A stretch of 62,786 nt of DNA, the filler included, from Choristocarpus tenellus KU-1152 (taxonomy: Eukaryota; Protista; Phaeophyceae), in NCBI GenBank assembly GCA_964200185.2. It is 11 parts of 11 records of this genome, joined end to end, with 100 filler letters (N's around TTAATTAATTAA, not from the genome) between each part and the next. Parts side by side here need not be neighbours in the genome. Positions count along the whole stretch, not along the records: positions 1 to 2,584 come from CAXNAD020026546.1; positions 2,685 to 7,003 come from CAXNAD020015133.1; positions 7,104 to 11,191 come from CAXNAD020016291.1; positions 11,292 to 16,148 come from CAXNAD020012769.1; positions 16,249 to 19,139 come from CAXNAD020023883.1; positions 19,240 to 28,808 come from CAXNAD020003568.1; positions 28,909 to 36,644 come from CAXNAD020005660.1; positions 36,745 to 45,038 come from CAXNAD020004881.1; 3 more parts are not named here. One strand, given 5' to 3'. Below the pieces are notes generated by a model, which was given only the letters and a program-made list of their open reading frames with translations, did not search any database and was not told where the DNA came from. A program made the translations under genes and the position numbers. Positions within the stretch are counted from its first letter, which is position 1. Every line of letters starts with the position of its first letter. Below, piece by piece: positions 1,483-58,000 of the stretch.

Positions 1483-1745
1483 GAGTCAAAGTATCTTAAA
1501 GGGTAAAACCACGTATTTGGGGGCCAAAATCCAACGGTGCGATTTTGATGTAATTTTTCCTATTGTATTTGTTAGGAAGTATCAATACCCTTTGTTCTGG
1601 ACAAACCTTTTCATAACGTACACATTTTACCTACTCCGAAACATTTTGGAGTAAGAAAATGTCATTAAAAAAAACAAAACAAGGGAAGCCAAGTCCCAAA
1701 CGGACACACAGGGCAAAACTCGCACCAAATAAGATACTTTCACTC
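1483..1745 (-). mobile_element. MITE family A copy (strand convention: + = long-spacer GAGTG end first)
   Basis: TIRs GAGTCAAAGTATCTTA / TAAGATACTTTCACTC; 3-bp TSD ATA; homologous to 9 other full or partial copies in the window. Confidence 0.9.
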
Positions 1746-2235
1746 ATAAATATATAAATAAATATCTATTAAAAAAAAAAGAGCGAGGGTGTTAGCCAGG
1801 AAGTGTCCAATGCATTCTACATGCAAGTGCAAGTGGAATGCGCAATCAACGCATCTCAACAGTAAATCCACAAAAAAAAATTATCTGCTATCCCAGGGAC
1901 ACTCTCTTCCTTGCCCTTCCTTGCCCTTCCTTGCCCTTCCCTCCCTGCCTCCCTCTCTCCCTCCCCTCGCCTTCCCTCCACAGTACAAACCCCCTCACCA
2001 CGAACACGTAAAAAAATAAAATAATCCAACCCTCTCCTATACAAAACCCCTTACCGCGACAAACAGACGAATACACGTACCACCTACAGAGCACAAACGT
2101 TTTTAACAAACAAAAAATAAAAAATAAAAAATAAAAATAAAGAATAAAAAATAAAAAGTAGGTGTGAAGTAGGCAGGCGAACGCGCAAGGAGGAGTCCAG
2201 ACACGCCAACCTCGATCCCTCTCACTGAGACACAC

Positions 2236-2387
2236 CTCATGATCATCTCGTCTCCAAACACTTCGAAGTCCACACTTCCTCCCCTCGGGAAGGCGTCTGC
2301 GTGCTGGTTGAGCGCATCTTCCGCCTCCTCGTCCCATGAGTGTGGCAACATCGCCACTCGCAACACGCCTGAAAATGGCGCAGTGAC
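2236..2387 (-). CDS. Internal exon of probable glycoside hydrolase family 81 endo-1,3-beta-glucanase (partial)
   Basis: AG/GT-bounded exon VTAPFSGVLRVAMLPHSWDEEAEDALNQHADAFPRGGSVDF resembles the GH81 segment FSG.IR.A.LP.....E..LD......P..G; other exons not confidently located. Confidence 0.6.
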
Positions 2388-2696: not shown

Positions 2697-2736
<40 letters not shown>

Positions 2737-3192
2737 GCACCGACCGGCCCCCCCCCCCCCCCCCCCCCCCCCCAGATGCTTTGAGGCCATTCGTGTCATT
2801 TGCAGTGTAACTGTGGGGTACATGCATTACAGCACAAGGGATATCAGTGGGGTCTCGATAGAGGAGGATGAACAAAAAATCTCCAGCAATGGGGAGAACC
2901 TGCAATTCCCACACTTCCTCTGTTTGAGCATCAGTTCACACAAGATTTTATTAATTTATTTTATTTCTTCTTCCTCAATGCCAACCGTTCAATACTCTGA
3001 CGTTGCAATGAAGGATTCAAATTAACAATGGAAATAAGAACAATAACAAGCGAAAATATTCCATTAAACAATACAGTAAAAAAAAAAACGTGGAACAAGC
3101 AAAACAAAAAACCAAAACCCCCCCCAACCAACCACAGGTGAAACCGCAGAGTATTTATTGATCATCAAGAATCATTTGACAAGGTGCATCAC

Positions 3193-3337
3193 CTGCATGA
3201 TCTCTTCGTAGAGTCGGACACCACCCTTGTTGATACCATCCAGTGTCTTGAAAGGGGCAGAGTTACTCCTTGCAATCAGCACAAACGCCTCTGTGCCTTG
3301 CCTGATTGTTACCCTCATTGATTAGTTGGTTATTTCC

Positions 3338-3424
<87 letters not shown>

Positions 3425-5697
3425 CAAACGCCCTCTATGATTTAGAACACCAAATCAAATTGAGTACTGAGCACACATAAAAGTTTTTTGGACAGTTCAA
3501 TTCATATTCCCCCTCCCCCCCCCCAAATAAAATAAAATAAAATATATACACATACTTTTGGGTATCGAAGTTCAAGTAACAGCAAGGCGCTGTACGGTTG
3601 TGATTCTCTCTGAGCACTTCCTAAAAACACTAAAAAAAATCTCACTTTATTAAATAAAAAGCTCTAATATTATTAATATTAGCAGTAGTAGAGCCAGCGC
3701 AAGGGGTGGGGGTAGTGGGGGGAGGTACACTAGCAAATAACTACCCTAACCCTAAAACGATCTACCAAAACAAAAAAACATAATGAGAAAAAATAAAAAC
3801 TGAAGCAAGGTTGAACACATTTCCTTGATCGTAAATAAGGAGATAACAAAAAACCCCATCATAAGCATCAAACATATATATATATATATATATATATATT
3901 GCTAAAAAGTACTGTACCACTTTTCTTATATTTATAGCAGCAGGAGGGAGGAAAGAGGGGAGGGAGGGGGGGCGAGATCGCCCTTGACATTGACACATCA
4001 TTGACACATCATTGACACATCAAGACACATCAAGACACATCAAGACACATCATTGACACATCATTGACACATCAAGACACATCATTGACACATCAAGACA
4101 CATCAAGACACATCAAGACACATCAAGACACATCAAGACAGAAAAGCACCGTTTTGTACTATTGGGAAGAAACACTGTTAACATTCAGCACTCTCTTCTG
4201 GTTTATTTTATTCTTTTGGTACAGGTGTTATAAAAATGAAAAAAACACACACACAACTATCGGTTGAGTATTACCGAAGTACGTGGAGGCGTTTGTACTA
4301 TGTTACTTGCTATGTTACTTGCTAAAACATTCCTTTTCTAGGATTCTTGTTGTACCATAACAACACAAATCAAATATATCACTGTTCCCACGAAAGCTCA
4401 CAAGGGTTGGTAGAGGGGCCCGAAAAAAAAGAAAGAAATTTACTAAATAAAAATAAAAATATCAGTAATATAATAATATGGAGGCGACAGGGCAAACGTG
4501 ACCATTGACTGAGTATTATTATTATTATTTTGACATGTTAGATGATGTATTTTACTCTCAACTCACAAACAAAAATAAAACAAAATGTATATATATATAT
4601 ATATTTGTGTGTGTGCTATCAATGCCACACCGTGGCAGAGACAATGAAGAAGACCGTCCAGGGACTAAGAACTCCATAGACAGCGCTAACAGGTGGCCCT
4701 CCTAACACAGAGGATCTTAACTGGAGCAGCCTTCCCCACCTGAGACTGATTGTCGTGGAGGAGGTATATACCTCATTGTTTTGGGGGGTCTTCGTCGCCT
4801 ATATATTGATACCAAAAGGGTTTCGGGAGATGACCAGCTCACCCGCCTGGTACCACTGGACCATAGTGCCCCATTCACAGCCAAAACATCAGGTCAACAA
4901 TTCTCTGAGACCACACCGGAGACTCCCACCAACCAATTAAAGGGTACACGGCATGACATCAAAAGGTATACTACGAATATACACAAAAATATATAAAAAT
5001 ATAAAAATACTGTTGGCCTTCCGTGTTTGATTGTTCATACTGTCAGTGGTTACTTTCACAGTCACTTTTTGGTTGTACTGTTCTGCTGATGATACCAGTT
5101 CTATGCACCAGTTCTACGTTTGGTACCTGTACCCTATACCCTGTTGTGGACCACAGGAGCGCCCACGGGGGGGAACAGCATCTCAAGAACCTTGACCCAG
5201 ACAGTGGATGCTGCACTAGACAAAAAAAAGAAGAATTAACAACAGGGGGAAGGAGAGACGCGCCACTGGAGGCGTCCCTCGGACTGGCTCCCTCCACAGT
5301 AGTAGTATCTCTCGTAATCCCTATGTACTCAGTATAGACAACACATAATAAAACAAACAAAAAAAATAACAGCAAAGAGCAAGCAGACGGCAGTAACAAA
5401 TGACAACAGTAATAATCTTTTCATTAATCCATTCCCATAATAGAGTTACCCCCTCTTCATCTCGAGCCTACAGAGTCCAACGGATACAGAGTCAACAAGA
5501 CATCACCTGGATGTCAACGCCTGTGCAAGGTACTTGAGATTGTCGGGGTCACCTCGAATGCCATGCACTAGGACCCAAAGGTGCTTTGCAGGCTGAGAAG
5601 GTCGGTATGCCTCCCTATCTGTAATGAACACAGTGCTGTGCTCACTCCACTCTCCCCAAACCAACTGCCCTCTCTCCAACTCATGCATAGCCCGCAC
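3193..5697 (-). CDS. DUF676 (FAM135/serine-esterase-like) lipase gene, partial; exons 5507-5697 and 3193-3301
   Basis: Spliced in phase: HLWVLVHGIRGDPDNLKYLAQAL...R|QGTEAFVLIARSNSAPFKTLDGINKGGVRLYEEIMQ matches the DUF676 motifs HL.VLVHG..G and N....T.DGI...G.RL..EI; canonical GT-AG. Confidence 0.8.
3339..3424. repeat. Compound (TG)n(GA)n microsatellite in intron
   Basis: Directly visible. Confidence 0.95.
3986..4140. repeat. 10/11-bp minisatellite GACACATCAA / GACACATCATT
   Basis: About 14 interspersed units of two variants. Confidence 0.95.
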
Positions 5698-6858: not shown

Positions 6859-6963
6859 TTTTAGATAGGTTAATCACCATTTTAGAAAGGTTAATCACCA
6901 TTTTAGATAGGTTAATCACCATTTTAGATAGGTTAATCACCATTTTAGATAGGTTAATCACCA
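6859..6963. repeat. 21-bp minisatellite TTTTAGATAGGTTAATCACCA x5
   Basis: Near-perfect tandem units. Confidence 0.95.
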
Positions 6964-7322
6964 AAACTCTTCACGGCAGAGTTACATACACCAAAAAACA
7001 TCCNNNNNNNNNNNNNNNNNNNNNNNNNNNNNNNNNNNNNNNNNNNNTTAATTAATTAANNNNNNNNNNNNNNNNNNNNNNNNNNNNNNNNNNNNNNNNN
7101 NNNCCATACAACAAACCATCCAGTTAGGTAACCTTCCCATATCCAAAGAAACTCCACCTCGACCTCCCCCCCCCCCCCCCCCCCCCCCCTCTAACATCTC
7201 TCCCTAGCGAGAGCAAGTCAGAGTAGATGTGCCGCTTGCCTCACTGTAGGAGGAAATCAGCAACAGCAGAGACCACACCAACATTACAATTCCATCTCTT
7301 CTAGCAACACACACATTCACAC

Positions 7323-8340: not shown

Positions 8341-8379
<39 letters not shown>

Positions 8380-11135: not shown

Positions 11136-11191
11136 GGCTCAAAGTATCTGGGAGGGGGTGGCGGCTGTCCATTTGGGGTCAAGTTTTTCAT
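11136..11191 (-). mobile_element. MITE family B, partial (contig end)
   Basis: GGCTCAAAGTATCTGGGAGGGGGTGGCGGCTGTCCATTTGGGG matches the short-spacer end of complete B copies. Confidence 0.85.
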
Positions 11192-11341: not shown

Positions 11342-12129
11342 ATGTGCATGGCTTGGTGGATTCTCTTTTTCTCACCCTGGGTTTTGTTAGTGGTGCATAA
11401 GGCGGTATCAACGAACTCAACAGTTTGTTGTGTTTTGGCACTGGAGACAAGAGGGACATCCTGCTACTTGCATCCCCTCCTTTGACAAATGCCGTTGAAG
11501 AAAAAAAAGGTCACAAACACTGATATATTTATATATATACTCTGGAGTATATAAACAAGAAATGAGTCGCAGTTCACTTGCTCCTCCTGTGTATGCACTT
11601 AGGATGGAGAATCATCCAATGAGAACTCTTCGTGGATCGCCTTGACCAATCAATGCAATGGAGTGAGGAAGGGATGCCAATACTGACAGTAATTATTTGG
11701 ATATCTCTACAATCTTAATCGCAGGGCATATTGATGGGTGTGGGGTCATGGTACCAAAATCAACAATGGCACTACCAATAGCAATAATAACAATGAAATA
11801 ATAGTAGTAGAAATAGTGATTAATAGTGTTAGTAGTGAGTGGAACTAAACAAGAGGTACTCAGGTTTGGGGGATTTGCATTTAAGAGCCAAAGTAAGTGA
11901 AAGGCACCCAGTTTTTGTCCGTTTTTGCAATGTCAGTTTTTCACTCTTTCGCAGTTCAACCCTTATTATATTTCTATGGATGAAGTGCTGAGATTGACTT
12001 GAGAGCGTTGAGTTCTCTGTTATCTTGAAAGTATTTAATAGGATTGAAAAGAGTCTCTTGTAAGCATTTGTACAACAAAAATACAAAACTATACACTGTC
12101 AGCATCCTTCAATTTGTAACCCTAAATTA

Positions 12130-12330
12130 CCTCTTGTTTACTCTTGCTAAAGTAAGAATAGTAACAATAGCAATGACAACAATAAAAATAATGACAGTGT
12201 AGTAATAACAATAATAATAAAAATAATGACAATAATGACATTAACAATGACAATAACAATAAAAATAATGACAAAAACAATACTATTAATAATAACAATA
12301 ACAAACGACAACAACAATGATAAAAATAAT
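12130..12330. repeat. Low-complexity AAT/AAC/GAC degenerate trinucleotide tract
   Basis: Directly visible; gives rise to spurious hydrophobic ORFs. Confidence 0.85.
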
Positions 12331-12520: not shown

Positions 12521-15150
12521 CTTGAGGAGGATGGCTGCACGGTGGAAATTGCTACGGAAGCTCCTTGGAAGTGGAGGTTTCACCTCTTGGACCCAAGTCC
12601 AGTACCTCTCCCATTCTTGTCCATCTTTGAACGGTAGAATGCATTGGATCTCGGAACTAGTATGTAGAGGTTCAAAGGGGGAAGGAGAAGCAAGGGAGGG
12701 AAGCTTATTGACCTAGGAGGGATTTCTGATATGTGGAACTACCATTTCCTTGCTCCTTGAGAGAGTCCACACAGTTGGCTGAGTCAAAGTTATCTTAGAG
12801 GGTAGGGGCGCGTCCATTTGGGGGCCAAAATCCAATGTTGCGATTTTGGTGTAATTTTGGCTATTGTGTTTGTTAGGAAGTGTCCATATCCCCGTTCCGG
12901 ATACACCTTTTCATAATGTATACACTTTACCTACTCCAAAATACTTTGGAGTAGGTAAAATGTCATTTTAAAAAAACATGGGAAGCCAAGCCCCAAATAA
13001 TGGACAAACAGGGCAAAACTCGTACCCTCTAAGATACTTTCACTCACTGGGATGATTGAGGTTTGAGCATTTCAAGGTTATTTTAATATTTAATAGGGTA
13101 GGAGTTTCGCCCTGTTTATCCGTTTGAGGCTTGACTTCCCACGGGTCTTGTGCTCTTCTTCGGTTTTCTGTGTAAACATTTGGATTTCGGAGTAGGTAAA
13201 ATGCACAGAACTATGGAAGGTGTGTCCAGAGCAAGCGTGTTGACACCTGCTAACGAGCACCATAGCCAAAATTCATCAAAATCGCAACGTTGGATTTATG
13301 ACCCTGAACGGACACGACCCTACCCTCTGAAATGATGCTTTGAGGTTTTTGTAAGGAAAAAGTCGAATTTTGTACATATTTGCCAACAACATCCTTAAAA
13401 TGCAACAGCTCTGGGTACCTCTCACTTACTTTGACTCATAGCAATAGTAAAAGTATGCCACAGCAGTGAGCCAGTATGGTGTACATACCCTGCAATCTCT
13501 AGCTCCCTCCCCCCTTCTTCTTGGATTGACTCAGGTTCTGGGACTGCTAGGCAATAGTACGTGGTTTGAACCTAGTATCGATACTGCCATATGGACACCG
13601 ATTTTGCCGTGGAAAGCAAAGATCATAACGGGAAGAAACGGTATGGGGAGATTCAGCATCCTTGATCCGCGTTGCTATTAGATTCTCCACCCTTCGACAT
13701 CATGTCTTTAACAACACTGTGAAAGGTCAATCAAGCTGAAAGCATGTCGAAGCCATGTCCAAACAGAGCGAATACCTCCGCTCAATAACCAGCAGTGCCT
13801 TGGTTGATAGTGTATGGCAGATTTAGTTTTATATTTTCCTACCTCAATTTTGGTTAACAAGCAACGGCACTCCTCAAATTCAAGGGTTTTATTATCCTAC
13901 TAACTTCACTTGTCCACCTTTCTTCTCACCAGCAAACGGGGCACAGATTCCAGCCAGTCTCGGGTTGGACACTAAAGCCTTCCTCCTCACAGCACTTCCT
14001 ACACACGCACTTGTGGGTGCAGGGGAAAAATACGGCCCAGGCCTTGCCCAGCTGGCACACCACACATGCTTGCTGCCCCTTAGGGTCACGGAAGGGAGCC
14101 AAGGAGGCATACTCATGTGCCATCAAAATGTAGTCCTGATGAAGTGGCCGTTTAGTTTGGTTACGACTCATGTAACTTGGGCATTTGCGAAGTGTAAGTG
14201 ATGATTGGTTATTCTCTTATCATGACCCTTGTCTGTGCATACTTATCCAGTTGAGAAGAATTGTGGTATTGCTTTGTGAATCCGATAGCTTGTGTAGGTT
14301 CAAAGGCATCGGTATTGTGTTATCTGACCAAAGAAGAGATATTCTAGGCGTATGGCAGGTCAAGGACACATCTATCTCTAGATTATCCTATGGATGTACA
14401 TAGACATTTGAAGGAAGTGTATAGTTCATTGGCTGTTCAAATCGAATGGTCTCCACTCTTCTATGAACGTAGTCGGCGGTTCTTGACTGAGAAGAAATGT
14501 CTTGCACACTGCGCACCGGGCATATTGCAAGCTGTCCCAACCATGGACATGGTACTCGATAGACTTGGTCATAATGCATCACTTTTTTGCACGATGAAAG
14601 AGGAAACATGTCTGAGATGAGTACAACCCCCTGCTCGGAACAACCTTATACTCCAAGTGCATTGTCGTGTATGTGACTCGGTGAGGTGATGATGATGGAA
14701 GCGCCCAAGAAAACTTGACACGCTCAACTCCCGACTTCGTTGCACCTTTCGCTTGCCGTCGTCATCCTTGTTGGAAGTACTCAGCACATCCGAAGGGTGG
14801 ATAACCCTGGAAGATGACACTGGTATCGCCGCTTTCCCTATTGAGAGATCCACAGGATCCAAAGTCGTATATATCGCATTAGCTCGTCTATCGTGATGGT
14901 TCGTGACCTGTAATTGCTGGCACTCCGCAACTGGTTCTTCCCATGTAGTACACCCCGTTTTCGTGTTGTAGTAGAAGAAGAGCTGCATAGCAGACACCAC
15001 CGAGTTCCTATGTCAGTTTAGACGAGCGGATACCCTCACTGCTTCCACAGGTGAATCGAAAAGTGACGAGATGATGACATGATTTCGTCGCACCTGGGTT
15101 GACGGGTCCCAATGCCTCGTCCAGAATGGGAGGAGTCCATCACCCACCAT
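12521..15150 (-). CDS. WW-domain plus C3HC4 RING-finger protein (putative E3 ligase), 3' partial; exons 15094-15150, from 14982, ending 13930, and 12521-12656
   Basis: Spliced WW LPFWTRHWDPSTQ|LFFYYNTKTGCTTWEEP; RING CVVC...FFPCTHKCVCRKC...CPVC|CSEIQ; downstream exon ERYWTWVQEVKPPLP in phase; structure between ~14130 and ~14900 unresolved. Confidence 0.75.
12781..13045 (-). mobile_element. MITE family A copy (intronic)
   Basis: Both TIRs, perfect internal hairpin, flanks GCT/ACT. Confidence 0.9.
13094..13345 (+). mobile_element. MITE family A, degenerate copy inverted relative to its neighbour
   Basis: Colinear with other A copies; termini eroded. Confidence 0.8.
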
Positions 15151-16746: not shown

Positions 16747-16797
16747 CTTCCCCATCTCCCTGGCGACTCAGCTTAGAATGCATGAAACGTCTAGACA

Positions 16798-17234
16798 GGC
16801 TCAAAGTATCTGGGGAGGGGGAGGTCTACACCAGGGTGTCCATTCAGCCCTTGACCAGGAGAAGTGAATTTAGATTATCCATCCAAGTGAAAGTATCTCA
16901 GAGGGTACGAGTTTTTCCCTGTTTGTCCATTTTGGACTTGGCTTCCCATGTTTTTTTTAATGATATTTACCTAATCCAAAATGTTCAGGAATAGGTCAAA
17001 TGTATACGTTATGAAAAGGTGTATCCAAAACATGGATATTGACACTTCCTTACAAACACGATAGCCAAAATTACATCAAAATCGCAACGTTGGATTTTGG
17101 TCCTAAATGGACGCGGCTCTACCCTCTAAGATACTTTGGTTCTCCGACGTATCCAACCAAATCGCCCAAAAATCGCGACATGGAAAAATGGGCCCCAAAT
17201 GGACAGCCACCACCCCCTCTAGATACTTTGAGCC
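16798..17234 (+). mobile_element. MITE family B (complete, hosts a nested A copy)
   Basis: TIRs GGCTCAAAGTATCT / AGATACTTTGAGCC; TSD ACA. Confidence 0.9.
16885..17142 (+). mobile_element. MITE family A nested in family B
   Basis: TSD TCC; removing it plus one TCC restores the uninterrupted B sequence seen near 30390. Confidence 0.92.
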
Positions 17235-17239
17235 ACAGG

Positions 17240-18930
17240 GCCACCTGCGTTGTCGTAGAGACTACTTGTCGTAGGCAGGATTTGATCACCCCTTTCCTGC
17301 CGTAGCCTCCAGTTCCTCTCCCCTACTGCGTGCATAGCTAGCTCATCCAGGAAACTTTCTGCTTGCTTATCGAGGCGCTCAAAACGTTCCACCACGAAGG
17401 TGTTGAAGTTAGAACTACGAGGATCAAAAGAGCCCTCTACGAGGGCTCTTTTATTACAGATAGTAGGTCATGGTTTAGCACCTATTGCTTCTACAAGGAA
17501 TCACTAAAAACGAACACTTACAACACTTGTAGAATGCTCCATCAAGATATAGATATAAAATGTCTCGAACATATAGACATCAAAGCCCAGAATTTATTCT
17601 CTATGAATATCCCTCTAAGATATAAAACATGATCCCGAATGCTTTCGGTTACATATTACTGTAATTCGTACCGTATTCTGTACACTCCCTAATGAGAGTG
17701 GAAGTAAACAAAACAAAACACAGATTGCTTCGACTCTCGCACACTGCATTCATCTTATCAATACAGTGTCTACAAAGTCTATTACCCGCTTCTACCGTAG
17801 TCACTTCGTTAAAATGTCACCAAGATGCACAGCAGTAGGTACGTACTTTCATTACAATAATTACTTGGCTCACGTACTCCCTTGTGCATTTCAAGTTTGT
17901 GTCAACATGCCATGTTCTTCCGTTGAACTCTATGGGTTGTCCCTGCCTGTATTGCAACTTGGTTATCCCCATACCAAGTCGTAACCCCTTGTGGGGTACA
18001 CCAAGTTCCCTCAGGATTCCTCTGATAAATATCGCTTATCTCATCCCTTGTGCCATTACTGTCCACTACTAGCACTGTCCTGACTATGTCATTCACCAGG
18101 CTGGACGTGTTGAGTAGTCCATACCCACCCGTTGGGTGAAGCCCTGTGCCACCAACCTGACCTTGAACTGTTCAATGGTCCCTTCGGCTGTCTGCTTAAT
18201 CTTAAATATGAACTTAGCCTTGACAGGTTTCGTTCCCCATGGCAAAATCCCTCCCTCTACGAATGTTCCCTTCTTTCGTTGTCACTCCATCTCTTTCTCC
18301 ATCGACGATTGCCATTCTCGCGGGTCAGGCCCCGTTAGTGCCTCTGATATAGAAGATGGTTCTGGATGGTCTGGGTTAGTGTTTCCTGCCAGACCGATTA
18401 AACAGTATGCGTCATCGGTGTTTGCCCTGATTAAGTTGATTATATTGTCGTCCAAGTAGTATCTTATCGTCGCTGAACGTAAAATTCTCTGTAGTCCACC
18501 CAGGGTTGCTCGTTCAGCCTGGCAGAGAGTGAAAGTATCTTACAGCGTACGAGTTTTGCCTTGTTTGTACATTTGGGGCTTGGCTTCCTATGGTTTTTTT
18601 TTATGACATTTCCTACTCCAAAATGTTCAGGAGTAGGTAAGATGTATACGTTATGAAAAGGTGTGTACGGAACAAGGATATTGGCACTTACTAACAAACA
18701 AGATTGCCAAATTTATATCAAAGTCTCAAAATTGGGTTTTGATCCCCAAATGGACGCGGCCCTACCCTCTTGGATACTTTGGCTCAGATCTCCGTTTAGG
18801 AGAGTTGTGCTTGGATGCCCATGTTTCTGGTGGGTTGGACTCTGTAACATCGCTGGAGTCCTCAATGAACAACTTTCAGATTCCCCGTCCGTAATGTACT
18901 CGTCTTGTTCAATGTACTCAGTCAGAGAAA
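17240..18930 (-). mobile_element. Degenerate, internally deleted Ty1/Copia retrotransposon (linker, RT N-terminus, RNase H, PPT, 3' LTR from 17684)
   Basis: EPSSISEALTGPDPREWQSSMEKEM, KPVKAKFIFKIK, FKVRLVAQGFTQRVGMDY (RT); IFIRGILRELG, GDNQVAIQ, HVDT, YVPT, GDILTK (RNase H); stops and frameshifts; AGGGAG-TGTACAG PPT/LTR junction. Confidence 0.85.
18527..18785 (+). mobile_element. MITE family A inserted in the Copia relic
   Basis: Both TIRs; TSD AGA; splits the RRS|ARL linker motif. Confidence 0.92.
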
Positions 18931-18936: not shown

Positions 18937-18969
18937 GAGTGAATGTATCTTAGAGGGTACGGGTTTTTG
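18937..18969 (+). mobile_element. Isolated family A terminus
   Basis: GAGTGAATGTATCTTAGAGGGTACG. Confidence 0.7.
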
Positions 18970-19239: not shown

Positions 19240-19302
19240 GGAGCCAAGCCCCACAAATGGACAAACAGGGAAAAATTCGTACCCTCTAAGATAGTTTCAC
19301 TC
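19240..19302 (-). mobile_element. MITE family A partial (contig start)
   Basis: AAATGGACAAACAGGG...ACCCTCTAAGATAGTTTCACTC. Confidence 0.85.
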
Positions 19303-25669: not shown

Positions 25670-26680
25670 TCTGGAAGTGTCAAGGATCAAAAGCTCTCTG
25701 CAAAAGGGGGCAATCACAATCATCAGACTTAACTTTTCTTGCACTTCAGAGAGAGGGTGATGATACCGAGTTTCAAAGGTGACACCGAGTTTCACAGGTC
25801 TTCGCCCAACATTCCAAGGTTAGTTGAGGAAATCCACAACAGAACCGAAACCTTAGCCTACAATAAATATCACAGAATGAATGAGCAACGTTACAGTAGG
25901 AAGATGGATCATTCAGAATCGGAATGAATCTTGGTTCTGACAGTACTTCTGACTCTATGGTCAAATCTGGATCTTGTGGGTGTGTCAGGTTTCGTGGACT
26001 GGTCGATATGGTAAGTTCAGTGACGTGGTTGGCGCGCGCGTATGGATATGACTGCGCGCCATATCCACAAAATGTGTGTGTGGGAGATCCCAAAAAAGGG
26101 ACCTACCTGTTGTCCCTAACAATTGTTAAATCAATCATTAATACAGAGAGAGGGGCTTGTTAGATTATTGGGATGCTTCCTTAGGCCCTCACCCTGGGTT
26201 GCAGGACTAAGCTAGGTTGGAGGCACAGGATGGTAGTCGTATGGCATTGCTGGTAGTTAAATAGTAAATAGATTAGTGTCTTTCACATTTACGACTATTG
26301 TTACTTTTTTAGGGGTTATTCTGACATGTGAATGGTATTCAGTGTCATAGTATCTTAGAGGGGAGGGGTTGTTTAGCGCAGGTTGTCCAATTAGGGCTTG
26401 ATGGGGTGTTGTAAGCTGCCCCAGTTTATTGCTCGTATTGCAAGAACTTTTTCTTCGGATTTGGTTCAGTTAGAGGGGTGGAAAAGGAACGTGCGTTCAG
26501 ATGAAGGAACTTGTCCTTAAATCTGACACATTTACCCAGATGACGTGAAAATCAACACAACAGGTTCACACCGGCCCCGAATGGACACCTGACCCCCCCT
26601 CTAGGATACTATGGGTCTTCATTGGTTTTCCCCTGACACATCTGGAAAATATCAGCGGGCATAATTACAATATAAAGATA
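25670..26680 (-). mobile_element. Near-complete LTR of family LTR-1, interrupted by MITE C
   Basis: 5' part aligns to 16500-16746 (+); 3' end aligns to 36571-36644 (-), which is followed by a PBS-like site and gag. Confidence 0.7.
26342..26617 (+). mobile_element. MITE family C
   Basis: TIRs GTGTCATAGTATCTTAGAGGGG / CCCCTCTAGGATACTATGGGTC; 4-bp TSD TTCA; another C terminus at ~45226-45243. Confidence 0.85.
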
Positions 26681-29968: not shown

Positions 29969-30140
29969 GAGTCAAACCAATCGAGAGCTAGGCAGGTTTG
30001 TATCCTTTTGCATTCTAAGCTTCCTTTCTTTACCTGTGCAATACACTCTGTTTCATTGCTTAATGTGCTCAATAGTGTACGCAAAATTGACATGCCCTTT
30101 CCACACACAGAGTGACGCCACAACTCAGCAAAGGCTCTTT
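29969..30140 (+). mobile_element. MITE family D, partial
   Basis: GAGTCAAACCAATCGAGAGCTAGGCAGG terminus; aligns with 30538-30710. Confidence 0.75.
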
Positions 30141-30317
30141 CTGTGATTAGCTCTGGTCCCCACCCCTGGGCTCTTCTGTGCGCTCAAGTATCCTCGTTCC
30201 ATAAGAAAACCTTGTATAAAACTTGGTCATCAGCACTGGTTATTTGGATCCCCTTCACAACATACCGTATATTTTCTGCTCTTACAAACCTAACGGCTCC
30301 GTAGTAGAGTTGCTTCT

Positions 30318-30496
30318 GACCCAAAGTATCTGGGAGGGGGGAGGGATCTACACAAGGGTGTCCATTTGGGTCAAAATCAGGAAAAGTGCATTTACAGCAA
30401 CCATCCGACGCATGCAACCAAATCATCCAAAAATCGCGACATAAAAAAATTGACCCCAAATAGACAGCCGCCACCCCCTCACAGATACTTTGAGCC
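30318..30496 (+). mobile_element. MITE family B (complete, ~180 bp)
   Basis: TIRs GACCCAAAGTATCTG / CAGATACTTTGAGCC; flanking direct repeat TTCT. Confidence 0.9.
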
Positions 30497-31390: not shown

Positions 31391-31647
31391 GAGTGAAAGT
31401 ATCTTAGAGGGTACGAATTTTGCCCTGTTTGTCCGTTTGGGGTTTGGCTACCCGTAATTTTTTTTTAACATTTTCCCACTCCAAATTTTTTCGGAGTAGG
31501 TAAAATATATGCGTTAGGAAAAGGTGTGACTGGAACAAGGATATTGACACTTCCTAACAAATACGATGGCCAAAATTACATAAAATCGCAACATTGAATT
31601 TTGTCTCTCAAATGGACGCGGCTCTACCCTCTAAGATACTTTGGCTC
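31391..31647 (+). mobile_element. MITE family A copy
   Basis: Both TIRs intact; no TSD (flanks TCT/AGA). Confidence 0.9.
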
Positions 31648-40402: not shown

Positions 40403-40640
40403 AGGTTACATTTTAAGGATCCCGAGAAATGGCTAAAAGGCGCCATATTGTACGATTGCAGAGAGAGACTCAATTGTGGTGTCACTTTGTGTGTGGAAAG
40501 AGGAAACATCAATGAACATCATTTTGGGTACACTGTTGTGCCCATAGAGAAAATTGAATAGGATGTATTACACAGGATAAGAAAGATAGCTTTGGATGCA
40601 AAAGGGCGCAAACCTGCCCATCTCTCAACTGCTTTTGCTC
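40403..40640 (-). mobile_element. MITE family D, diverged copy lacking one terminus
   Basis: Aligns to the reverse complement of ~30540-30765. Confidence 0.7.
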
Positions 40641-44969: not shown

Positions 44970-45038
44970 GGCTCAAAGTATCTGGGAGGGGGTGGCGGCT
45001 CTCCATTTGGGGGCCATTTTTTCATGTCGCGATTTCTG
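44970..45038 (-). mobile_element. MITE family B partial (contig end); another B terminus at 50148
   Basis: GGCTCAAAGTATCTGGGAGGGGGTGGCGGCT. Confidence 0.85.
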
Positions 45039-47303
45039 NNNNNNNNNNNNNNNNNNNNNNNNNNNNNNNNNNNNNNNNNNNNTTAATTAATTAANNNNNN
45101 NNNNNNNNNNNNNNNNNNNNNNNNNNNNNNNNNNNNNNAACAGACCAACCATCGCCCTTTTCCCACCCCCCCCCTCCATCCTTTTTATAGTACCCCCCCC
45201 TCCCCCCCCCCCCCCCCCCCCCCCTTCTAGGATACTACGGGCGTTTACACTTGTATTTTTGTTACTTTTTAGATTTCAGTTCTTGACAGGGACGTCTATG
45301 TATTGAACGACAGTTTCCTGTTTTACGTGTTTTAGTGACCCTTCATGTTTTGTTTCTTTGTAAGGACGAGGCGATCTTTGTACTCCGGAGTATGACAACA
45401 CCTTGTTTTAATCTTTTTGTGATCTTTTTTCTTGCTTTATGTTGAAGGTGAGAGTCTCTGAACGCGCTGCCTTCAGTTTTTTGCTAATATTTGATGTTCA
45501 GGGAAAAGTCTCTCATGGACAGTATACATATAGTTGGGATCACGATGTGCTTGGATTGTCTTATTGAGGGTTAAATCAGATGCAGGATGAACGCCATAAG
45601 GTAGGAGTATCATGTTAGCATATCTGTCACTACAGAACTGCTGGAAGATCACGTTTTCGTCGAGTTTCCTCCTCCCCTGGATCCTAAATTGTTGCCTGTT
45701 CTTGATTATATGTTTGGACCCGGTGGTCACATTCAGTTCGCATCTGCTACATTGAATTTTCAGGATGATGATAAGGAGAGTTGTCTCATCTCCTTCTCTT
45801 GCCTGATGATAGCATTGAAACTGTTCTGCCTTTTCTCCACTTGTTGTGACAACGTGTGTGAACCCCTCTTTGACATTGGGATTAATCGATCATAGGGCAG
45901 GACAATGCCAGTCACTAATAAACAAATCACGCTCTGGTTCAACCTTTTCAACACTTGTCACGGCTTGGGGTAAAGGCGGTCTCGGGGGAAGTGGCGACAA
46001 GAGCTTCCAGTATTTCTCACAAATTAGTCACTAGCGACAGGTAGAACTGTCTTCCTTTGCTCGCTGGCATTTTGGAGATGTTATCATCATGAGGGAAACA
46101 ACGGCAGAAGATCACAACTAGTACCACATAATTTGTATGCACATTTAGTACTGCTCTACAGCTCTACTTACAGCAATTGTTTCATCAGCACACCAAAAAA
46201 TAGTCAGAACGGGGTGTTGTAGCGGTTAGAAATACTCACGCGTGTAGGTTCTTGTGAGTACTGACAATAATCTTATTAGACCAGACAGTACTTTGTACTA
46301 CTGTAGCGCTCTCTAATAGTATTATTTGGTTCTAAGCGCTCTCTACAGTGCAACAGATCCCTAAAGAGACGTAGCCAGCTTACTATAAATATGCCAGAGT
46401 CTGCACTACCAGCTTCTAGTGGTCCATAGTATCGCAGCAGCATATTGAAGAATTGTGCCTAAGCAATAGCCTCATCCAGGTAAGCACAGCTGGAATAAGC
46501 ACACATGCATTGTGGACTGGCCGCTCCTCTACTCCCTCACTTTATTGTTGTATATTGAACGTGACCAAAGCAGATGCCAGTCTCTCCTGACACAATAATA
46601 AAACCTCACATACGTGCACACACTGTGTAAACTCACATGGTAGTGACCCAAGCACACACAATACTACATAAACGAGCAGAAAATATCAAAATAATATAGT
46701 AATCTTGCACCCCAATTCATTGGGCAGGGGCTGCTGCAGGCAAGTTTGTCTTCAAGGCTGTACTCATGCACAGATTCGATTTTTGGAAATAGTACCTGTG
46801 CTCGCTGCCTTCAACTCTGTAAATCGTCTGTACCCAATACACAATCTTGAGTACTCCATGCTTGTCAAATACCTCAGGCGCGAACTATGTTGGAGGGGTG
46901 GCATGTCAGTAGAGAGGACTTGAACTCAGCATTCCTTAGCTACTTGAAGTACAGCAGGAGTCGGATCATCTAACCCAGTATGCATACAGTCCACACCTTC
47001 TACTGGAAAACATCGCACAATGCAATCTATCCCTTTTCATGCATGTACTAACCTCTCTAATACCATCCATCTTAATCACCTTGTCAAGGAGAGCAAGGTG
47101 GAAGCGTAAGGGTCCTCACCTTGGATGGTTTACTTAATCACTACCCTACCTCAGCACTCACAAGAAATTCATCTGGAAGACCAACATGAATGCACGTACA
47201 TGTTGATACAGGTGGAAGCCAACCAGCTACCACCAAAGGAACCTCACAACTGGTTGAGCCACTACTAACCCCCTCTTCAAGGGTCGGTCCCTTTCGCTAA
47301 TGG

Positions 47304-49194: not shown

Positions 49195-50385
49195 CTAAGG
49201 CAATAGAAACGCAAGAGATGGAGAGGCCCGCAGAGGCAAAGATGAGGGCATGTTTGCTGCTAGCGTAATGTCAATGATACTAAATATACTCCTATGAAAG
49301 AAACTATAACTATGTTAAATACAATGTTTTCTGGGTTAGATGTTGAGTTGGTAGAATAAAGCAACATGGTCAATGGAGATCCCGTCACCTCTATGCTGAA
49401 GTTCTGGCACACTGTGTTCACCTATTAATACAATTGAGTTAACATTCTTTCAACATCCCCCTGTCCTCAACCCTGTTGAGAGCATGCCTTCCTTTTCGCG
49501 CAAAAAGCAAAACAAGATCCATCTAGGCAGAGGTGTGTCGTACTAGGCAAGTAAGATGGAAGGGGCAACAGGCAACAGGGAGGGGTTCAAAAGAGGGAAC
49601 TGAATAAGAGAGCTTCCTCATCATCACCAAATGCTGTGTCTTGTTATGGAACCACACTAGACCAATGTTGAGGCAATTGTGGGGTGATACACTTGAGAGT
49701 GGAGCTTTACAGGCCACAGTTGGGTTTTTAGGCTATATCTTGTACCTACTACAAGTAGAGAAAAGCAAGCATGCTGCATGATAGAATTTCTTGTAATTTA
49801 AAATACTTCAAAATGCTTCTGTGTTGGTAGTGATGGATAACGTTAGGGGGATAAGTGAGATACTTTGATGTTTTTCAAACATTGTCTGCTGGATTATAGT
49901 TGAAGTGCTCGTCTCAACATTGCAGCGAAAATGGATACCTGTTACAAAGTTTCATGTTGTATGCATTGACACCCATGCACATCACTAACAGTGTACACTT
50001 CACCCTTTGAACAGAGTTTTCAATTGAAGCAGAATTAGTATCCAGACACTGGCAGTCGCCTAGTCCTCATAACCTTAGATGATACAGAATCTGGTCCCTT
50101 TTTTGTTAATAACAGAGTACTGCAGTGCCGACAAAACACACACAAGGGGGTCAAAGTATCTGGGGGGGGGGGGGGGGGGGGGGGGGGCGGACGTTTTTCT
50201 CCTTTTTTCTTTTTTNNNNNNNNNNNNNNNNNNNNNNNNNNNNNNNNNNNNNNNNNNNNTTAATTAATTAANNNNNNNNNNNNNNNNNNNNNNNNNNNNN
50301 NNNNNNNNNNNNNNNCCAGCCTCTTCCCTCCCCACCTAACCTGTCCCTATCCGGCACAAATGTTCTCGGGCTACTGCTGAGGTAG

Positions 50386-52703: not shown

Positions 52704-52960
52704 GAGTGAAAGTATCTTAGAGAGTACGAATTTTTCCCTGTTTGTCCATTTGGGGCTTGGCTTCTCACGGGTCTTTAACGACATTTAACCTACTCAAAAA
52801 TGTTTCGGAGTAGGTTAAATGGGTATGATATGAAAAGGTGTGTCCGGAACAAGCATGTTGACATTTCTTAACAAACACGATAGCTAAGATTTCATCAAAA
52901 TCGCAACATTGGATTTTGGCCCCCAAGTGGACACGGCTCTACCCTCTAAGATACTGACTC
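52704..52960 (+). mobile_element. MITE family A copy
   Basis: TIRs; TSD ATT. Confidence 0.92.
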
Positions 52961-55087
52961 ATTAAGACTCATCACAATGTGGCCCTTGTTCTTGTTTCAA
53001 GTTGGACGTTTGGACTCGTCCAAGTTCATAAGCTTTTGTTTCTGCAACATTCACCCAATCCAGTCAGTGGTTATTTTGCCATATGTGCAACAGTTTCCAT
53101 TCTCCATCTTCACTTCCTTGAACTGCTTGCATCCACTCCACCCTTCGTTGTAAGAGTTAGCAATGATGCTTTGGATTTTACCACTGGTCTACCTATCTCT
53201 AGTGCACTTTGCATTATTGTCCTCACTATTCCTTTCTTCTATGGCCTCCTTTGACCAACAGCATCTTAATATATCCATGTACGAAGATGCTTTGCAGGCA
53301 TGATATGGGCAAGGTGGGCACAGTCAACTATGCCTCCACAATGTGTTTGAGGGGGTATATTAAAGCTTCCGTTATCTGTGCTAGAGGACGAAATCTTACC
53401 CGCTCAGTTCCTACTACTGGATGGCACTTTCTTCTGTGTTCTAATCAGCCATGATGTTGATAATCGATCTCCCTCCCACACTAAAAAGTTCCTTTGCGAG
53501 TGATATAACTGAACACACAATGTGGGATCGGCATATTGCCAAGACATTGGACGTCAATTCTCCTGTGTCTCGTAGCACCATTGCTCTTTCAAAGGACTTT
53601 TTTTGGTCGAATTTTCCTGAAATGCTGAATTGACTGACTCAGAGTTATTGCTGTGCTAGAGCTGTAGAATACTAGGTTTGTGCATGTACACGAGTATGTG
53701 GTTGGACATACACATCATGAGCGGTTCAATGACTTTAGGCAATAGGTAAACCAACCTGATTTATATCCTCCGTATACCCCAATTCCAAGTGCATGCTCCT
53801 CCCAAATATATGTCAAGTAACCCCAATGCATTCCATACAACTTACCGCAGGGCAACAATACACTCTCATCCCATGTTTCTTATTGCCCAACCAAGTCATT
53901 TCGTTGATCTCGAGTATATCCCCCATAACTTGAAAAAATGCATCAGTGCAAAAAAAAAAGAGGTTAATCATACCTCAGTAGTTGATGGAGGCTGTTCCTT
54001 ACATTATTGTTATTGGTTCGAACCCTATCAACACTAGACTCCTTTTCAGGTTTTTATGGAAACCAAGTTTTGATGGTCCAAAGTTCACCTGGTAAGTGCA
54101 GCTGATTGTAAACCCTTTTGGCTCTCCTATCTGTCCCCGTACCACAAAAACGTCGGACCAAGAGTAAGGTGGCAAGACTTCATTTCAAAGCAACGCCAAG
54201 AACAGCCTCTCAGCAAAATTGAGGATGGAGCACACTATGGAGGATGGGTTTGACACAAAATTGTCCTGGTAAAAGTGTCGATATGTTCTTTTTTTGTAAA
54301 TGTTGTGGCACTTTTTAAGAGCCCCTTTTTGAACGGGATATATATTTTGTTCAAAACTATTTCGGTGCTTGTGGAGGGCACTGCTACGATTTGGAAGCGA
54401 CCTCGAACAAGCCAAAGGTATAAGGACAGATGGACCCTCCCGGGGGGGAGCTGGTAACGGTTTTGGTATTCTTATATGTATGGTACACTACAGATTGTAT
54501 TATACAATGCATACATACGTCTTGTTCTACTAGTTATAAATATCTGTTCGAGTGTTAACCAAGTCGACAAAGAAGAATGAACAGATGTTTCACTCTATAC
54601 ATNNNNNNNNNNNNNNNNNNNNNNNNNNNNNNNNNNNNNNNNNNNNTTAATTAATTAANNNNNNNNNNNNNNNNNNNNNNNNNNNNNNNNNNNNNNNNNN
54701 NNAATTAACAAAATTTTCTACCCCCACAAAGGAAGAAACCCGGTATAAAACCCTCCCCCCCCCCCCATCTATTAAAGGTATATATTCCAATATACTACCG
54801 AAGAGCCAAGGTAATTCAGAAGTAGGAAATGTTGCATTTTAAGGATTCCGAGTGGTGGAAATAGGACACCACTTGTACAATTCCAAAAAGAGTCTTTGCC
54901 GTACGGTGGTGTCAGTGTGTGCTAGGAAAAGGGGAAAAAAAAATTGCGTACACTGTCGTGGACATACAGCAATGTAATACAGTTTATTGCATAAGGTAAG
55001 ACTGATGTTCTAGAATGCAGAAGAAGGGCCCAGACCTGCCTACCTCTCCATCTCTTTGTTTCAGAAGTGTAAACTATATGGACATAC

Positions 55088-58000
55088 CTTTCTTTCATCT
55101 TGCCACCGGTATATTGACCGAAGATCTGATGAGGTAGGCGGGTTCCAGCTTTCGACACGGCCAGTGATGCTGCAGATACCACCTTCATTTATCGCATGCT
55201 CTGAATTTTGGTCCCTTCCTCCACTGTCACCTGCATCCCACTTTACAGCCTGACCCCTGGCAGCATTGTTGAGAAATTTCTTCCCCTTGGCCCCATCCTC
55301 ATTACGATTCTTGTCTAGATTTGTGGCGAGTGTTGGGTTGACTCCTTCTCCTTTCTCGTTCTCTGAATCCCAAAGAGGAGCATGTCTGGCAGACTCAGAT
55401 TTAGCAAGGGGAAGCAAGCATCGTGTTGTAGGGCAAACACCTCTGTTTTAGACAGGAAGAGGGTGGGGAATGGTGTGGTGAAAGTGCAAAAGAAAATAGA
55501 GAAGGTCTCTATTGCGGTAATGCCCTTTTGATCCTTGCTGTTCCCATGTCCTGCCAGTAATAGCACTTCTTTCGTCACTGCAATGATATCCCCACTTCCA
55601 GCTCTTCAATGTCTTAGTTTGGTTTCTTAAGTTATGTACAACGCTTCTTGATTACACTTTCCTGCCCTTCCCCAGTTCAATCCTCTCCAAATCACTGGAG
55701 TCATCCTGTCCACCTTGGAGGATACTCGGCTCTCATTTGGTATTGCAATTTGCCGTTCTGGTCATCATAGTGGTGTAGGTGTCTGTGTATGCATAATATG
55801 CTAAACAGAATGGTTCATTCTGCAACCCATGACATCAATTTGCCAAGGAAGACCACCAGGTGGAGTTTATCATAAATTTGTTAGAGTGAAAGTATCTCAA
55901 AAGGTACGTGTTTTGCCCTGTTTGAGGCTTGGCTTCCCATGTTTTTTTTTATTTTGCTACACCGAAATGTTGCAGAGTAGGTAAAATGTATGCATTATGG
56001 AAAGGTGTGTCTGGAACAAGGGTATTGACACTTCCTAACAAACACAATAGCCAAAATTTACATCAAAATAGCAACAATGGAGTTTGCCTGCATACGGATA
56101 CGGCTCTACCCTCCAAGATACTTTGACTCTTTTCTCTCTACCTTACAAGCTCTCCTCATTACCATAACCGCCGTCACCCCCAACCCCTACATATTGGCTG
56201 GCCATCACCTGTTGCGATGTATGTTGTTGTGATGGCCAATTCGTGCTTCAAGGTCCTCTTTCCACTCAACCAATCTTCGAGCTTCTTCTGCTGCCTCCTC
56301 TTTATTGGCTTGCTCATGACCCTGGAAGGGTTTTTGTGTAAGAAGTTGTTTTAGGACATGTATATATGTACATGTCACAGTCTTTGACTGTGTGCATGTG
56401 TATGTTCTGGGGGTTTATGAAGCCATCTTTTCAACAGAGTAAGTCACATTGAATAGTTGTGCTTAAAATGAGGGTGGAATAGGTACTGCGATATCACTAC
56501 AGTGGTGTACATTGTGGGAGAGAAAAGAGGTCTTAGAGGAGTGATTTGAAGGTGTGGAATGCACCTATGATAAGTCGAAATTCTATTTTTATAGAAATTG
56601 CAGGCGATTCTCACTAGTGACAGACATACTTTCAGCATTATATCCAGACACATTTGCTCACAAATGCACTAGAAGATTTACCCAATAGTAAAGTAATTTA
56701 TTCGGAAATATTTGTACTGCTGCCAAGATTATATAAACTGAAGCGCATTAGAACCTTGGATTCTTACTCACTGTACTCTCTTCCTGTTGACTTCCCGCAT
56801 ACCCTGGAGAAGTGGAGGCACCTATGTTGATACCTTCTTCAGCAACTACTGGAGAAGTCTTCTTTTGAGGCAACTGACTGGACTCATGCAGCTCCTCCTT
56901 CCTTGTGACGTCTGCTCCAGGACTATTTACAAAAGGATGACTAATGCTGATTGTATCAGGTTGGAGGCTACTCTCTGTAGGGGAAGACTCCATAGTCAAG
57001 GACTGCGGTGAAACCTCCCTCTTCATTCGAACAGGTGGATTAAGGGTTAGACCCCAACGAGAGGCCAGGTATGCTGCCACTTCCTGATACTGGAAGTCGC
57101 TGAGAGGCTTGTCAAACACAAGCACCTTTGCTTATGTTGCAATCAATCAATGCCAATTGCCCCCCCATCCGGAGATTATATAGAGGTGTAGGGGTGCATG
57201 ATGTGCTTTAGTGTGGGTATCAAAATGTTGAAAAAATGAAATTAATGGGCATGTGGATAGAATTGGAAGAATACAAGGAAGGTAGAACAAGAAAAGTTGC
57301 TTTTTACATGTGGAGGAATATTCGTTTTCTCTTCTTTGGAAGTAATAATACCTACAAGTGTCATATTCAGGTCTTTCGAACTTGGCACAGAGATTGAGAA
57401 GATGCCCATCTAAAGCCGAATCAAGGTAGGGCTTGTTTACCTTCAATGACATCAAACTTATGATCAAAAGTATCTCAAATGATGAGTTGATGATTCTTAA
57501 AAAAGTAATAAACAAGGAACAACTGCACTATGTTCAAGAGTATATTGACAGTTGAGATGCTGTTCTCTGAATCCTTGGAAGTGTTTCAGAAACAAATGTG
57601 TCTCTCCATCTAGAACTCCACCTTTACGAGTCAAAACCAGCTACACCAACTCAACAAGAACACGGTAGGATTTTGAGGTTTTCGTGATAACAAGGAGAGA
57701 AGTTAGGAGGGGGACTAGTGAAGGGACTGGAATGGACTCCCTACCTCGCCAATACCTCCAGCAAACCCGCAGCTGCCCGGTTCAACTCCACCCAGACATA
57801 ATGGGGCACTATCACTGAACTCAGAGATGCCACTGGCAGCCTCTATAGTTGTTCCACGCTTACTCAGTGCAGTGATCCAGTCTCCTCCGGCAAGGGCTAC
57901 CTAAGATAGTAGCCAGAAACAATTCCGTGGTAGGCTAAGCCAAGAGTGTACTGTGGAGGAATGTACTTGTTTTGGCATTCAAAACCTTGAAGGGCTATAT

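What the first reader, a model, noticed from the sequence alone, without database searches (positions are those of the whole stretch)
1483..56129. Four MITE families share asymmetric bipartite ends offset by one helical turn (12/23-like geometry)
Seen: about 20 copies of four families with largely unrelated interiors (A ~260 bp, B ~180 bp, C ~276 bp, D ~254 bp). All begin G(A/G/T)NN(C/G)A(A/T)A and carry a second inverted box inside the TIR. Counting from the terminus, GTCCATTTGGGG starts at position 31 on one end and 41 on the other in A (e.g. 31391-31647) and in B at 16798. It starts at about 31-32 versus 43 in other B ends and at 32 versus 44 in C. Family D has a different TIR core yet places TGCATT at exactly 31 and 41 (30538-30791; position 41 also at 29969). 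Known: asymmetric spacers govern synapsis in RAG/Transib RSS (12/23) and piggyBac ends, but these termini and TSDs fit neither. Inference: a diversified DNA-transposon lineage whose transposase reads an outer and an inner site and pairs one short-spacer end with one long-spacer end. The spacing has been kept while the sequence diverged. No autonomous partner is visible in the window; PIF/Harbinger, Zator and Sola2 are only candidates based on termini and TSD length.
Basis: partly seen in the sequence, partly recalled or inferred. Interest (0 to 1): 0.85.

Follow-up and report, generated by a model that had tools for sequence, protein, structure and literature searches.

The report
Brown-alga MITEs with unequal ends
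Five related families of short jumping-DNA copies in a brown alga carry an inner inverted box about one DNA turn (10-13 bases) farther from one end than from the other; this likely lets an as yet unidentified transposase tell the two ends apart, a design already known from P elements and antibody-gene joining signals.

Summary
In family A the spacer between the 23-bp terminal repeat and the inner box is 17 nt in 8 of 9 long ends and 7 nt in 7 of 8 short ends. Offsets between the two ends are 10-11 in B, 12 in C and 10-13 in D. A fifth family, E, fits only partly. Contigs from three runs show sharp ends, very high abundance of A and B, and almost no listed spacer indels.

Corrections: D's 'exact 31/41' is 30/40 in A's register. 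A, B and C share short-side subterminal sequence, so there are about two lineages (ABC, DE), not four independent ones. TSDs are 3 bp (A) or 4 bp (C), both fitting empty-site comparisons, with no fixed sequence.

The host is the brown alga Choristocarpus tenellus or a very close relative. No transposase was found. Sola-2 is the best guess (about 0.45); the TWA/ANT rule of Harbinger fails.

Unequal terminal-repeat-to-binding-site spacing is published for P elements (9/21 bp, likened to 12/23) and piggyBac. An obligate short/long pairing rule is untested. Verdict: a real, new variant of a known design; interest moderate.

The parts
1483..1745 (-). Family A MITE, complete; 3-bp TSD ATA; short-end box has a 2-nt deletion
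12781..13045 (-). Family A MITE, complete; spacers 17/7; TSD GCT/ACT
13077..13346 (+). Degraded A-like copy (about 70% identical); spacers still 17/7
16798..17234 (+). Family B MITE (box 41/31, TSD ACA) carrying a nested A copy
16885..17142 (+). Family A MITE nested in B; 3-bp TSD TCC, matched against an empty site in B 30318
18527..18785 (+). Family A MITE, complete; box 41/31; TSD AGA
18937..18967 (+). A long-end fragment, interrupted by another repeat
19242..19302 (-). A long-end fragment at a contig edge; box at 41
31391..31647 (+). Family A MITE, complete; box 41/31; no TSD (flanks are reverse complements)
52704..52960 (+). Family A MITE, complete; spacers 17/7; TSD ATT
55884..56129 (+). 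Family A MITE with an 11-nt deletion across the long-end box; TSD TTA/TTT
30318..30496 (+). Family B MITE, complete; box 43/32; 4-bp TSD TTCT
11136..11191 (+). B short end at a contig edge; box at 32
44970..45038 (+). B short end at a contig edge; box at 32
50148..50190 (+). B-type end running into a G-tract at a contig edge; spacer not measurable (likewise ends at 11341 and 2787, - strand)
26342..26617 (+). Family C MITE; box 44/32; 4-bp TSD TTCA, matched against an empty paralogous site near 16520-16585
45200..45243 (-). C-type end fragment with a G-tract at a contig edge
30538..30791 (+). Family D MITE; TGCATT box at 41/31; TSD TTAT/TTAC
29969..30148 (+). Partial D copy; long end, box at 41
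40406..40640 (-). Partial D copy; long end, box at 41
54803..55062 (-). Diverged D copy; box 44/31; TSD CGAA/AGAA
60433..60690 (-).
11885..12148 (+). Family E copy; long-end box at 42; other terminus degraded
13356..13437 (-). E/D-like short-type end; box at 34

Best explanation
These are non-autonomous cut-and-paste transposons (MITEs) of one lineage in a brown alga, with a 23-bp terminal repeat and an inner box 10-13 bp farther in on one end, likely moved in trans by a DDE transposase (best guess Sola-2-like) that would read both sites. Shown: TIRs, 3- or 4-bp TSDs, high abundance, fixed 7/17-nt spacers in family A, and turnover of long-spacer sequence between families. Inferred: the catalytic core engages the terminal repeat and makes a 3-4-nt staggered target cut; a separately tethered DNA-binding domain binds the inner box; an offset of about one helical turn keeps the box on the same DNA face at both ends, so the paired complex is asymmetric, with the long end bent or looped as proposed for P element and RAG complexes. 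Spacer length, not sequence, would then be under selection in the master copies. A preference for short/long pairing is likely; a strict rule is untested.
For: Spacers of 17 nt in 8 of 9 long ends and 7 nt in 7 of 8 short ends of A, including a 70%-identical degraded copy (the interrupted end at 18937 was left out). Offsets of 10-13 in all 4 complete B, C and D copies plus D54803. Long-spacer identity between families only 3-11 of 17-18 positions. Perfect 3- or 4-bp TSDs in 7 of 13 complete copies (P about 2e-9); empty-site comparisons fit 3 bp for A and 4 bp for C. Contigs from 3 runs of one study: 41,097, 27,939 and 7,252 laid on 29940-31680, sharp ends at 31391 and 31647, none of the 12 listed indels in an A, B or D spacer (21 rows hidden). 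For C, 611, 374 and 113 contigs, and 1 of 12 listed indels in a spacer (0.3% of depth in X1, 6.5% in X3; 35 rows hidden). Precedent: P element 9/21-bp spacing likened to 12/23 (PMC7776569 passages); piggyBat LE/LE and RE/RE donors inactive (PMC11707139 passages). Sola-2 occurs in Ectocarpus with a 4-bp TSD (PMC12477816 supplement 3); Dictyostelium Sola2 ends begin GAGTG/GAGCC like family A and have AT-rich 4-bp TSDs (PMC3627910).
Against: No transposase was found: no DNA-transposase Pfam hit in 262 ORFs; six collection scans gave 0, 1 (chance-like), 0, 0, 0 and 0 loci. Only about two lineages exist (ABC share the short subterminus; D and E are related), so shared offsets may be inheritance. 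Offsets spread from 10 to 13, and E fits in 2 of 4 ends (31 and 42 fit; 34 and 50 do not). Family A makes 3-bp TSDs whereas Sola is described with 4 bp. Only the first 5 bases match Dictyostelium Sola2 ends, and Ectocarpus Sola2-1 starts GGCGG. Laid contigs need 80% identity, which filters out spacer variants. B long ends are far less covered than B short ends, so B's long spacer is poorly tested. The 4-bp TSDs could also be a 3-bp TSD plus one extra terminal base.
Confidence: 0.55

Rival explanations
1. Permissive phasing. The transposase binds the inner box but accepts it at either n or n+1 helical turns. An ancestral 10-bp insertion was tolerated and inherited, and short/short or long/long ends would move as well.
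For: All copies descend from a few masters in about two lineages. The spread of 10-13 suggests loose geometry. B short ends carry a degenerate second box 11 bp further in (3 of 4 ends), as expected of a periodic array of sites. Symmetrized piggyBac ends work with an engineered transposase (PMC11707139).
Against: No symmetric family among the five in the window. No internal opposite-strand joint among the 15 joints shown for A/B/D (679 hidden, so weak).
Confidence: 0.3
2. A PIF/Harbinger (PHIS)-derived lineage with a relaxed target rule. The inner box would be the site of the Myb/SANT-like accessory protein (recalled) and the outer repeat the transposase site.
For: Ectocarpus Harbingers have GGGTC/GACCC termini with 35-43-bp imperfect TIRs; 4 of 38 ends here start GGGTC or GACCC, and the short end through its box spans 42 bp. 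Family A has 3-bp TSDs. Several D/E flanks are TNA.
Against: TWA in only 4 and ANT in 3 of 38 flanks. In one search the base outside A's right end is A in about 41% of loose ends (387 of 939 in X1, 286 of 715 in X2, 117 of 282 in X3), which fits neither TWA (0%) nor ANT (100%). 4-bp TSDs occur in B, C and D.
Confidence: 0.2
3. The inner box has no function in transposition; it is a relic of a once longer TIR, broken by a 10-bp indel on one side.
For: No binding data exist. TIRs often decay inward. Individual copies have lost or damaged the box (1483, 55884, 56129).
Against: The box core is better kept across families than the spacer that lies closer to the end, which neutral inward decay does not predict.
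Confidence: 0.12

Closest known systems
Drosophila P element ends (PMC7776569, passages read)
   Same: TIR plus an internal transposase site at unequal spacing (9 vs 21 bp), already likened in print to 12/23 RSS; non-autonomous derivatives.
   Different: P has 31-bp TIRs and an 8-bp TSD; Ectocarpus P-like families have CAAGG termini and 7-bp TSDs. Here the termini start with G, TSDs are 3-4 bp and the offset is 10-13. Works like P; not a member.
RAG recombination signals (12/23) and Transib (details recalled)
   Same: Outer and inner motifs separated by a length-conserved, sequence-variable spacer that differs by about one turn.
   Different: No CAC heptamer, no nonamer, no 5-bp TSD; an obligate pairing rule is not shown here.
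Sola-2 (Sola2-1_Ec32; DFa-1/2/3, PPa-1/4/5)
   Same: G-starting termini (25 of 38 ends GRG; the GRG rule is recalled), first five bases GAGTG/GAGCC as in DFa ends, short imperfect TIR (26 bp in Ectocarpus), 4-bp AT-rich TSD as in C, D and one B copy; present in brown algae.
   Different: Family A and one B copy have 3-bp TSDs; bases 6-11 do not match DFa ends; Ectocarpus Sola2-1 starts GGCGG; no transposase linked. I saw no description of a bipartite asymmetric end for Sola in the papers read.
PIF/Harbinger of Ectocarpus (Harbinger-5, -N4, -N7, -N8_Ec32)
   Same: GGGTC/GACCC terminal pentamers; TIR extent of 35-43 bp; 3-bp TSD length.
   Different: TwA/TnA/AWT target rule not met; 4-bp TSDs occur here; the Ectocarpus non-autonomous elements are 0.8-1.3 kb against 0.18-0.27 kb.
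piggyBac and piggyBat ends (PMC11707139, passages read)
   Same: Internal binding sites arranged asymmetrically from the tips; both ends needed together in piggyBat.
   Different: TTAA target and CCC termini; TTAA at only 1 of 38 flanks here.

Membership tests
MITE (non-autonomous TIR DNA transposon) | Short, TIR-bounded, no coding capacity | tested here: met
   179-276 bp, 23-bp TIR core, no Pfam hit in overlapping ORFs
MITE (non-autonomous TIR DNA transposon) | Target-site duplication | tested here: met
   Perfect 3- or 4-bp TSD in 7 of 13 complete copies, one mismatch in 5 more; two empty-site comparisons
MITE (non-autonomous TIR DNA transposon) | High copy number with uniform ends | tested here: met
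   Summed depth up to 1.6 million over A against 12-30 in flanks in X1; sharp ends. The tool warns that depth is no copy number.
Sola-2 | Sola-type DDD transposase in an element with the same ends | not testable with these tools
   No genome held; no long element found
Sola-2 | 4-bp TSD | tested here: inconclusive
   4 bp in C, B30318 and D (one mismatch each in 2 D copies); 3 bp in A and B16798
Sola-2 | Terminal positions 1-11 match a known member with at most 1 mismatch (Repbase rule, PMC4455052) | tested here: inconclusive
   Fails against the DFa/PPa ends read (only the first 5 match); only 5 bases of Sola2-1_Ec32 were readable; other Sola-2 ends were not available
PIF/Harbinger (incl. Pangu) | TWA/TNA or ANT target duplication | tested here: not met
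   TWA 4, TNA 8, ANT 3 of 38 flanks; loose-end counts
PIF/Harbinger (incl. Pangu) | Autonomous partner with transposase plus a second gene | not testable with these tools
   No partner found
Zator | GG termini and 3-bp TWA duplication (recalled) | tested here: not met
   7 of 38 ends start GG; TWA 4 of 38; 'Zator' has 0 occurrences in the main text of the Ectocarpus survey
P element | CA termini and 7-8-bp TSD | tested here: not met
P element | Unequal spacing between TIR and inner site (functional analogy) | tested here: met
   7 vs 17 nt in A; binding itself untested
Transib/RAG RSS | CAC heptamer, nonamer and 5-bp TSD (recalled) | tested here: not met
piggyBac / Sola-3 / Kolobok | TTAA target | tested here: not met
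   1 of 38 flanks
Tc1/mariner | TA duplication | tested here: not met
   No perfect 2-bp duplication in 13 complete copies

The most novel reading that the evidence does not exclude
An unclassified brown-algal DDE transposon lineage, with a variable 3/4-bp target stagger, has evolved on its own a strict RAG-like short/long pairing rule, with spacers one helical turn apart kept across five families and very many copies.
Probability: 0.15. Interest if true: 0.75.

Novelty: new variant of a known kind. Interest (0 to 1): 0.45.

Why it matters
If the spacing is functional, this is a compact natural system (180-270 bp, five families) for asking how often one-turn end asymmetry evolves outside RAG and P elements. 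If the partner is Sola-2, it would give a cis-architecture clue for a superfamily for which I recall no biochemical work. The families cover 7.5% of this window and many contig edges fall in them, so they matter for annotating and assembling this genome. If phasing is merely permissive, it is an ordinary MITE radiation with an inherited indel.

Tried and rejected
No whole genome is held, so no genome-wide histogram of spacers or TSDs and no search for long elements was possible.

Pattern scans: A terminal repeat in viral contigs, 0, and in prokaryote genomes, 0. Bipartite pattern in metagenomes, 1 hit; L001 lacks the terminal motif and I judge it chance. Bipartite pattern in viral contigs, 0. 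B terminal repeat in viral contigs and genomes, 0 and 0.

Pfam scan of 262 of 263 stop-to-stop ORFs of 68 aa or more: no DNA transposase; frameshifted or shorter remnants could be missed. The only transposase-like remnant (43227-43535) has Tc1/DDE_3 clusters as weak leads (0.87-0.89, family share 18-28%, recognition below threshold); rejected as partner because Tc1 duplicates TA.

No RNA holder was listed. Earlier findings: four look-ups returned nothing.

Literature: the founding Sola/Zator paper is not held, so its terminal rules are recalled. Searches for prior description; none listed these families or an asymmetric Sola end, but the library lacks most subscription papers. The Ectocarpus TE FASTA supplements could not be read and may hold relatives with this end structure.

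Rejected: 'exactly 31/41 in D' as an independent coincidence (register shift of 1); assembly artefact (three runs hold the ends); a fixed TWA, ANT or TTAA target.
Full report
Setting. The window is a chain of short contigs joined by ten N linkers. No whole genome is held. Exons of a sugar-transporter gene at about 7300-10200 match a protein labelled Choristocarpus tenellus letter for letter within the exons, and a Discosporangium protein at 72-86%. The host is therefore this brown alga or a very close relative.

Observation. Each end has a terminal repeat of about 23 bp, a spacer and an inner box with the core T(C/G)CATT. In family A the spacer is 17 nt in 8 of 9 long ends scored; the ninth has an 11-nt deletion, and the interrupted end at 18937 was left out. 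It is 7 nt in 7 of 8 short ends; the eighth has a 2-nt deletion. This includes a degraded copy only about 70% identical to the rest. Box starts are 41/31 and 43/32 in B, 44/32 in C, and 41/31 and 44/31 in D, with two more D long ends at 41. A strict two-part pattern gave 17 matches at the expected distances against 0.63 in 100 shuffles; the pattern was derived from the copies. A looser pattern was mostly noise.

Corrections. D's box aligns with A's one base in, so D is 30/40 in A's register. Offsets span 10-13. Trimmed interiors are unrelated in 9 of 10 pairs, but A, B and C share the short-side subterminus and D and E align weakly throughout. That leaves about two lineages. Long spacers share only 3-11 of 17-18 positions between families, so length is better kept than sequence.

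Beyond the window. Three runs of one study hold this DNA; one may be the source of the assembly, so they are not independent support. Laid on 29940-31680 at 80% identity, 41,097, 27,939 and 7,252 contigs matched. Summed depth in X1 was 0.55-1.6 million over A, 0.09-1.4 million over B, 2,700-12,300 over D and 12-30 in most flank bins. This is no copy number, but it points to very large A and B families. Ends are sharp at 31391 and 31647. None of the 12 listed indels lies in a spacer, with 21 rows hidden. For C, 611, 374 and 113 contigs matched; the right end is at 26617, two near-full matches span 258 and 262 bp, and 1 of 12 listed indels lies in a spacer at low share, with 35 rows hidden. The identity filter would hide strongly different spacers. 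B long ends are much less covered than B short ends, so that spacer is poorly tested.

Target sites. Of 13 complete copies, 5 have a perfect 3-bp TSD (4 A, 1 B) and 2 a perfect 4-bp TSD (1 B, 1 C). Five more have one mismatch (2 A and 1 E at 3 bp, 2 D at 4 bp), and A31391 has none. Empty paralogous sites fit 3 bp for A nested in B and 4 bp for C; a 3-bp TSD plus one extra terminal base cannot be excluded for the 4-bp cases. There is no fixed target: TWA in 4, TNA in 8, ANT in 3 and TTAA in 1 of 38 flanks. About 41% of loose ends outside A's right end begin with A. The adjacent base is A or T in 34 of 38 ends (P about 1e-5).

Partner. No DNA transposase was detected in 262 of 263 ORFs. A remnant at 43227-43535 leans weakly to Tc1/DDE_3 and does not fit these TSDs. 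Six collection scans found one chance-like match. No search seeded with a Sola transposase was run, so whether this genome encodes one is open.

Mechanism. Shown: non-autonomous TIR elements, TSDs, nesting, abundance, and conserved unequal spacers. Inferred: a trans-acting DDE transposase holds the terminal repeat with its catalytic core and the inner box with a tethered DNA-binding domain; a one-turn offset keeps the box on the same helical face and gives an asymmetric paired complex (0.55). The main rival is permissive phasing with an inherited 10-bp insertion (0.3). Short/long in every copy cannot separate the two, because copies inherit both ends. B short ends carry a degenerate second box 11 bp further in (3 of 4 ends), which suits a periodic array of sites.

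Comparison with what is known. The P element review states that the ends differ in spacing between TIR and transposase site, 9 and 21 bp, reminiscent of 12/23 signals (PMC7776569, passages). piggyBac carries identical palindromes placed asymmetrically, piggyBat LE/LE and RE/RE donors are inactive, and engineered piggyBac works on symmetrized ends (PMC11707139, passages). The design is therefore known; these elements are not members of those families. In the Ectocarpus survey (PMC12477816, passages and parts 2-3 of supplement 3), Sola2-1 has GGCGG termini, a 26-bp TIR and a 4-bp TSD. Several Harbingers have GGGTC/GACCC termini, 35-43-bp TIRs and TwA/TnA TSDs. No listed family combines G termini with non-specific 3-4-bp TSDs at this size; the FASTA supplements were unreadable. 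Dictyostelium Sola2 ends share the first five bases with A and have AT-rich 4-bp TSDs (PMC3627910, passages and supplement 11), but fail the Repbase 11-base rule (PMC4455052, passages). Passages of PMC5753468, PMC5199201, PMC12973397 and PMC11071193 gave no terminal rules. The GRG rule for Sola-2, TWA for Zator and the Transib features are recalled. My odds for the superfamily: Sola-2 0.45, PHIS-derived 0.2, Zator 0.05, unclassified 0.3.

Verdict. The feature is real and well conserved, a new variant of a known asymmetric-end design in an unassigned MITE lineage. The strict 12/23-like rule is an untested possibility (0.15). Interest 0.45.

Noticed in passing
window 31386-31652: The A copy at 31391-31647 has no TSD; its flanks are 5-bp reverse complements (CCTCT/AGAGG), and the right flank runs into a Gypsy-type integrase C-terminal remnant (PF22938, PF24626). 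Possibly a mis-join or a rearrangement.
   Followed up: partly
window 43227-43916: Transposase-like remnant on the - strand (weak Tc1/DDE_3 leads), next to an unrelated foldback element with 106-nt arms at 43624-43916.
   Followed up: partly
family A interior, e.g. window 12927-12957: Family A carries an internal inverted repeat of about 10 bp with a short loop, kept in most copies of alignment A1.
   Followed up: no
window 30496-, 17234-, 44970+: B short ends carry a degenerate second copy of the inner box 11 bp further in, at the position the box has on the long end.
   Followed up: partly
window 16513-16746 and 26150-26663: A further two-copy repeat (about 80% identical) that hosts the C insertion; unclassified. 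A D-like box motif lies at 16771-16782 (- strand) beside the B insertion.
   Followed up: partly
window 2787, 11191, 11341, 19242, 45038, 45243, 50148: Many contig edges fall inside these MITEs, often in G-tracts, so the families likely fragment the assembly.
   Followed up: no
all 38 element ends: The base next to the terminus is A or T in 34 of 38 ends against 56% expected, a weak target preference.
   Followed up: yes
window 7304-10174: Intron-containing sugar-transporter gene (PF00083) whose exons match a Choristocarpus tenellus protein; used to place the host.
   Followed up: yes
window 13929-15012: RING-finger (PF13920) and weak WW (PF00397) matches on the - strand, probably exons of a host gene.
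   Followed up: no
window 50300-51700: Exon-like stretches resembling a Patched/NPC1-type membrane protein (recalled likeness; no Pfam hit at the cut-off used).
   Followed up: no
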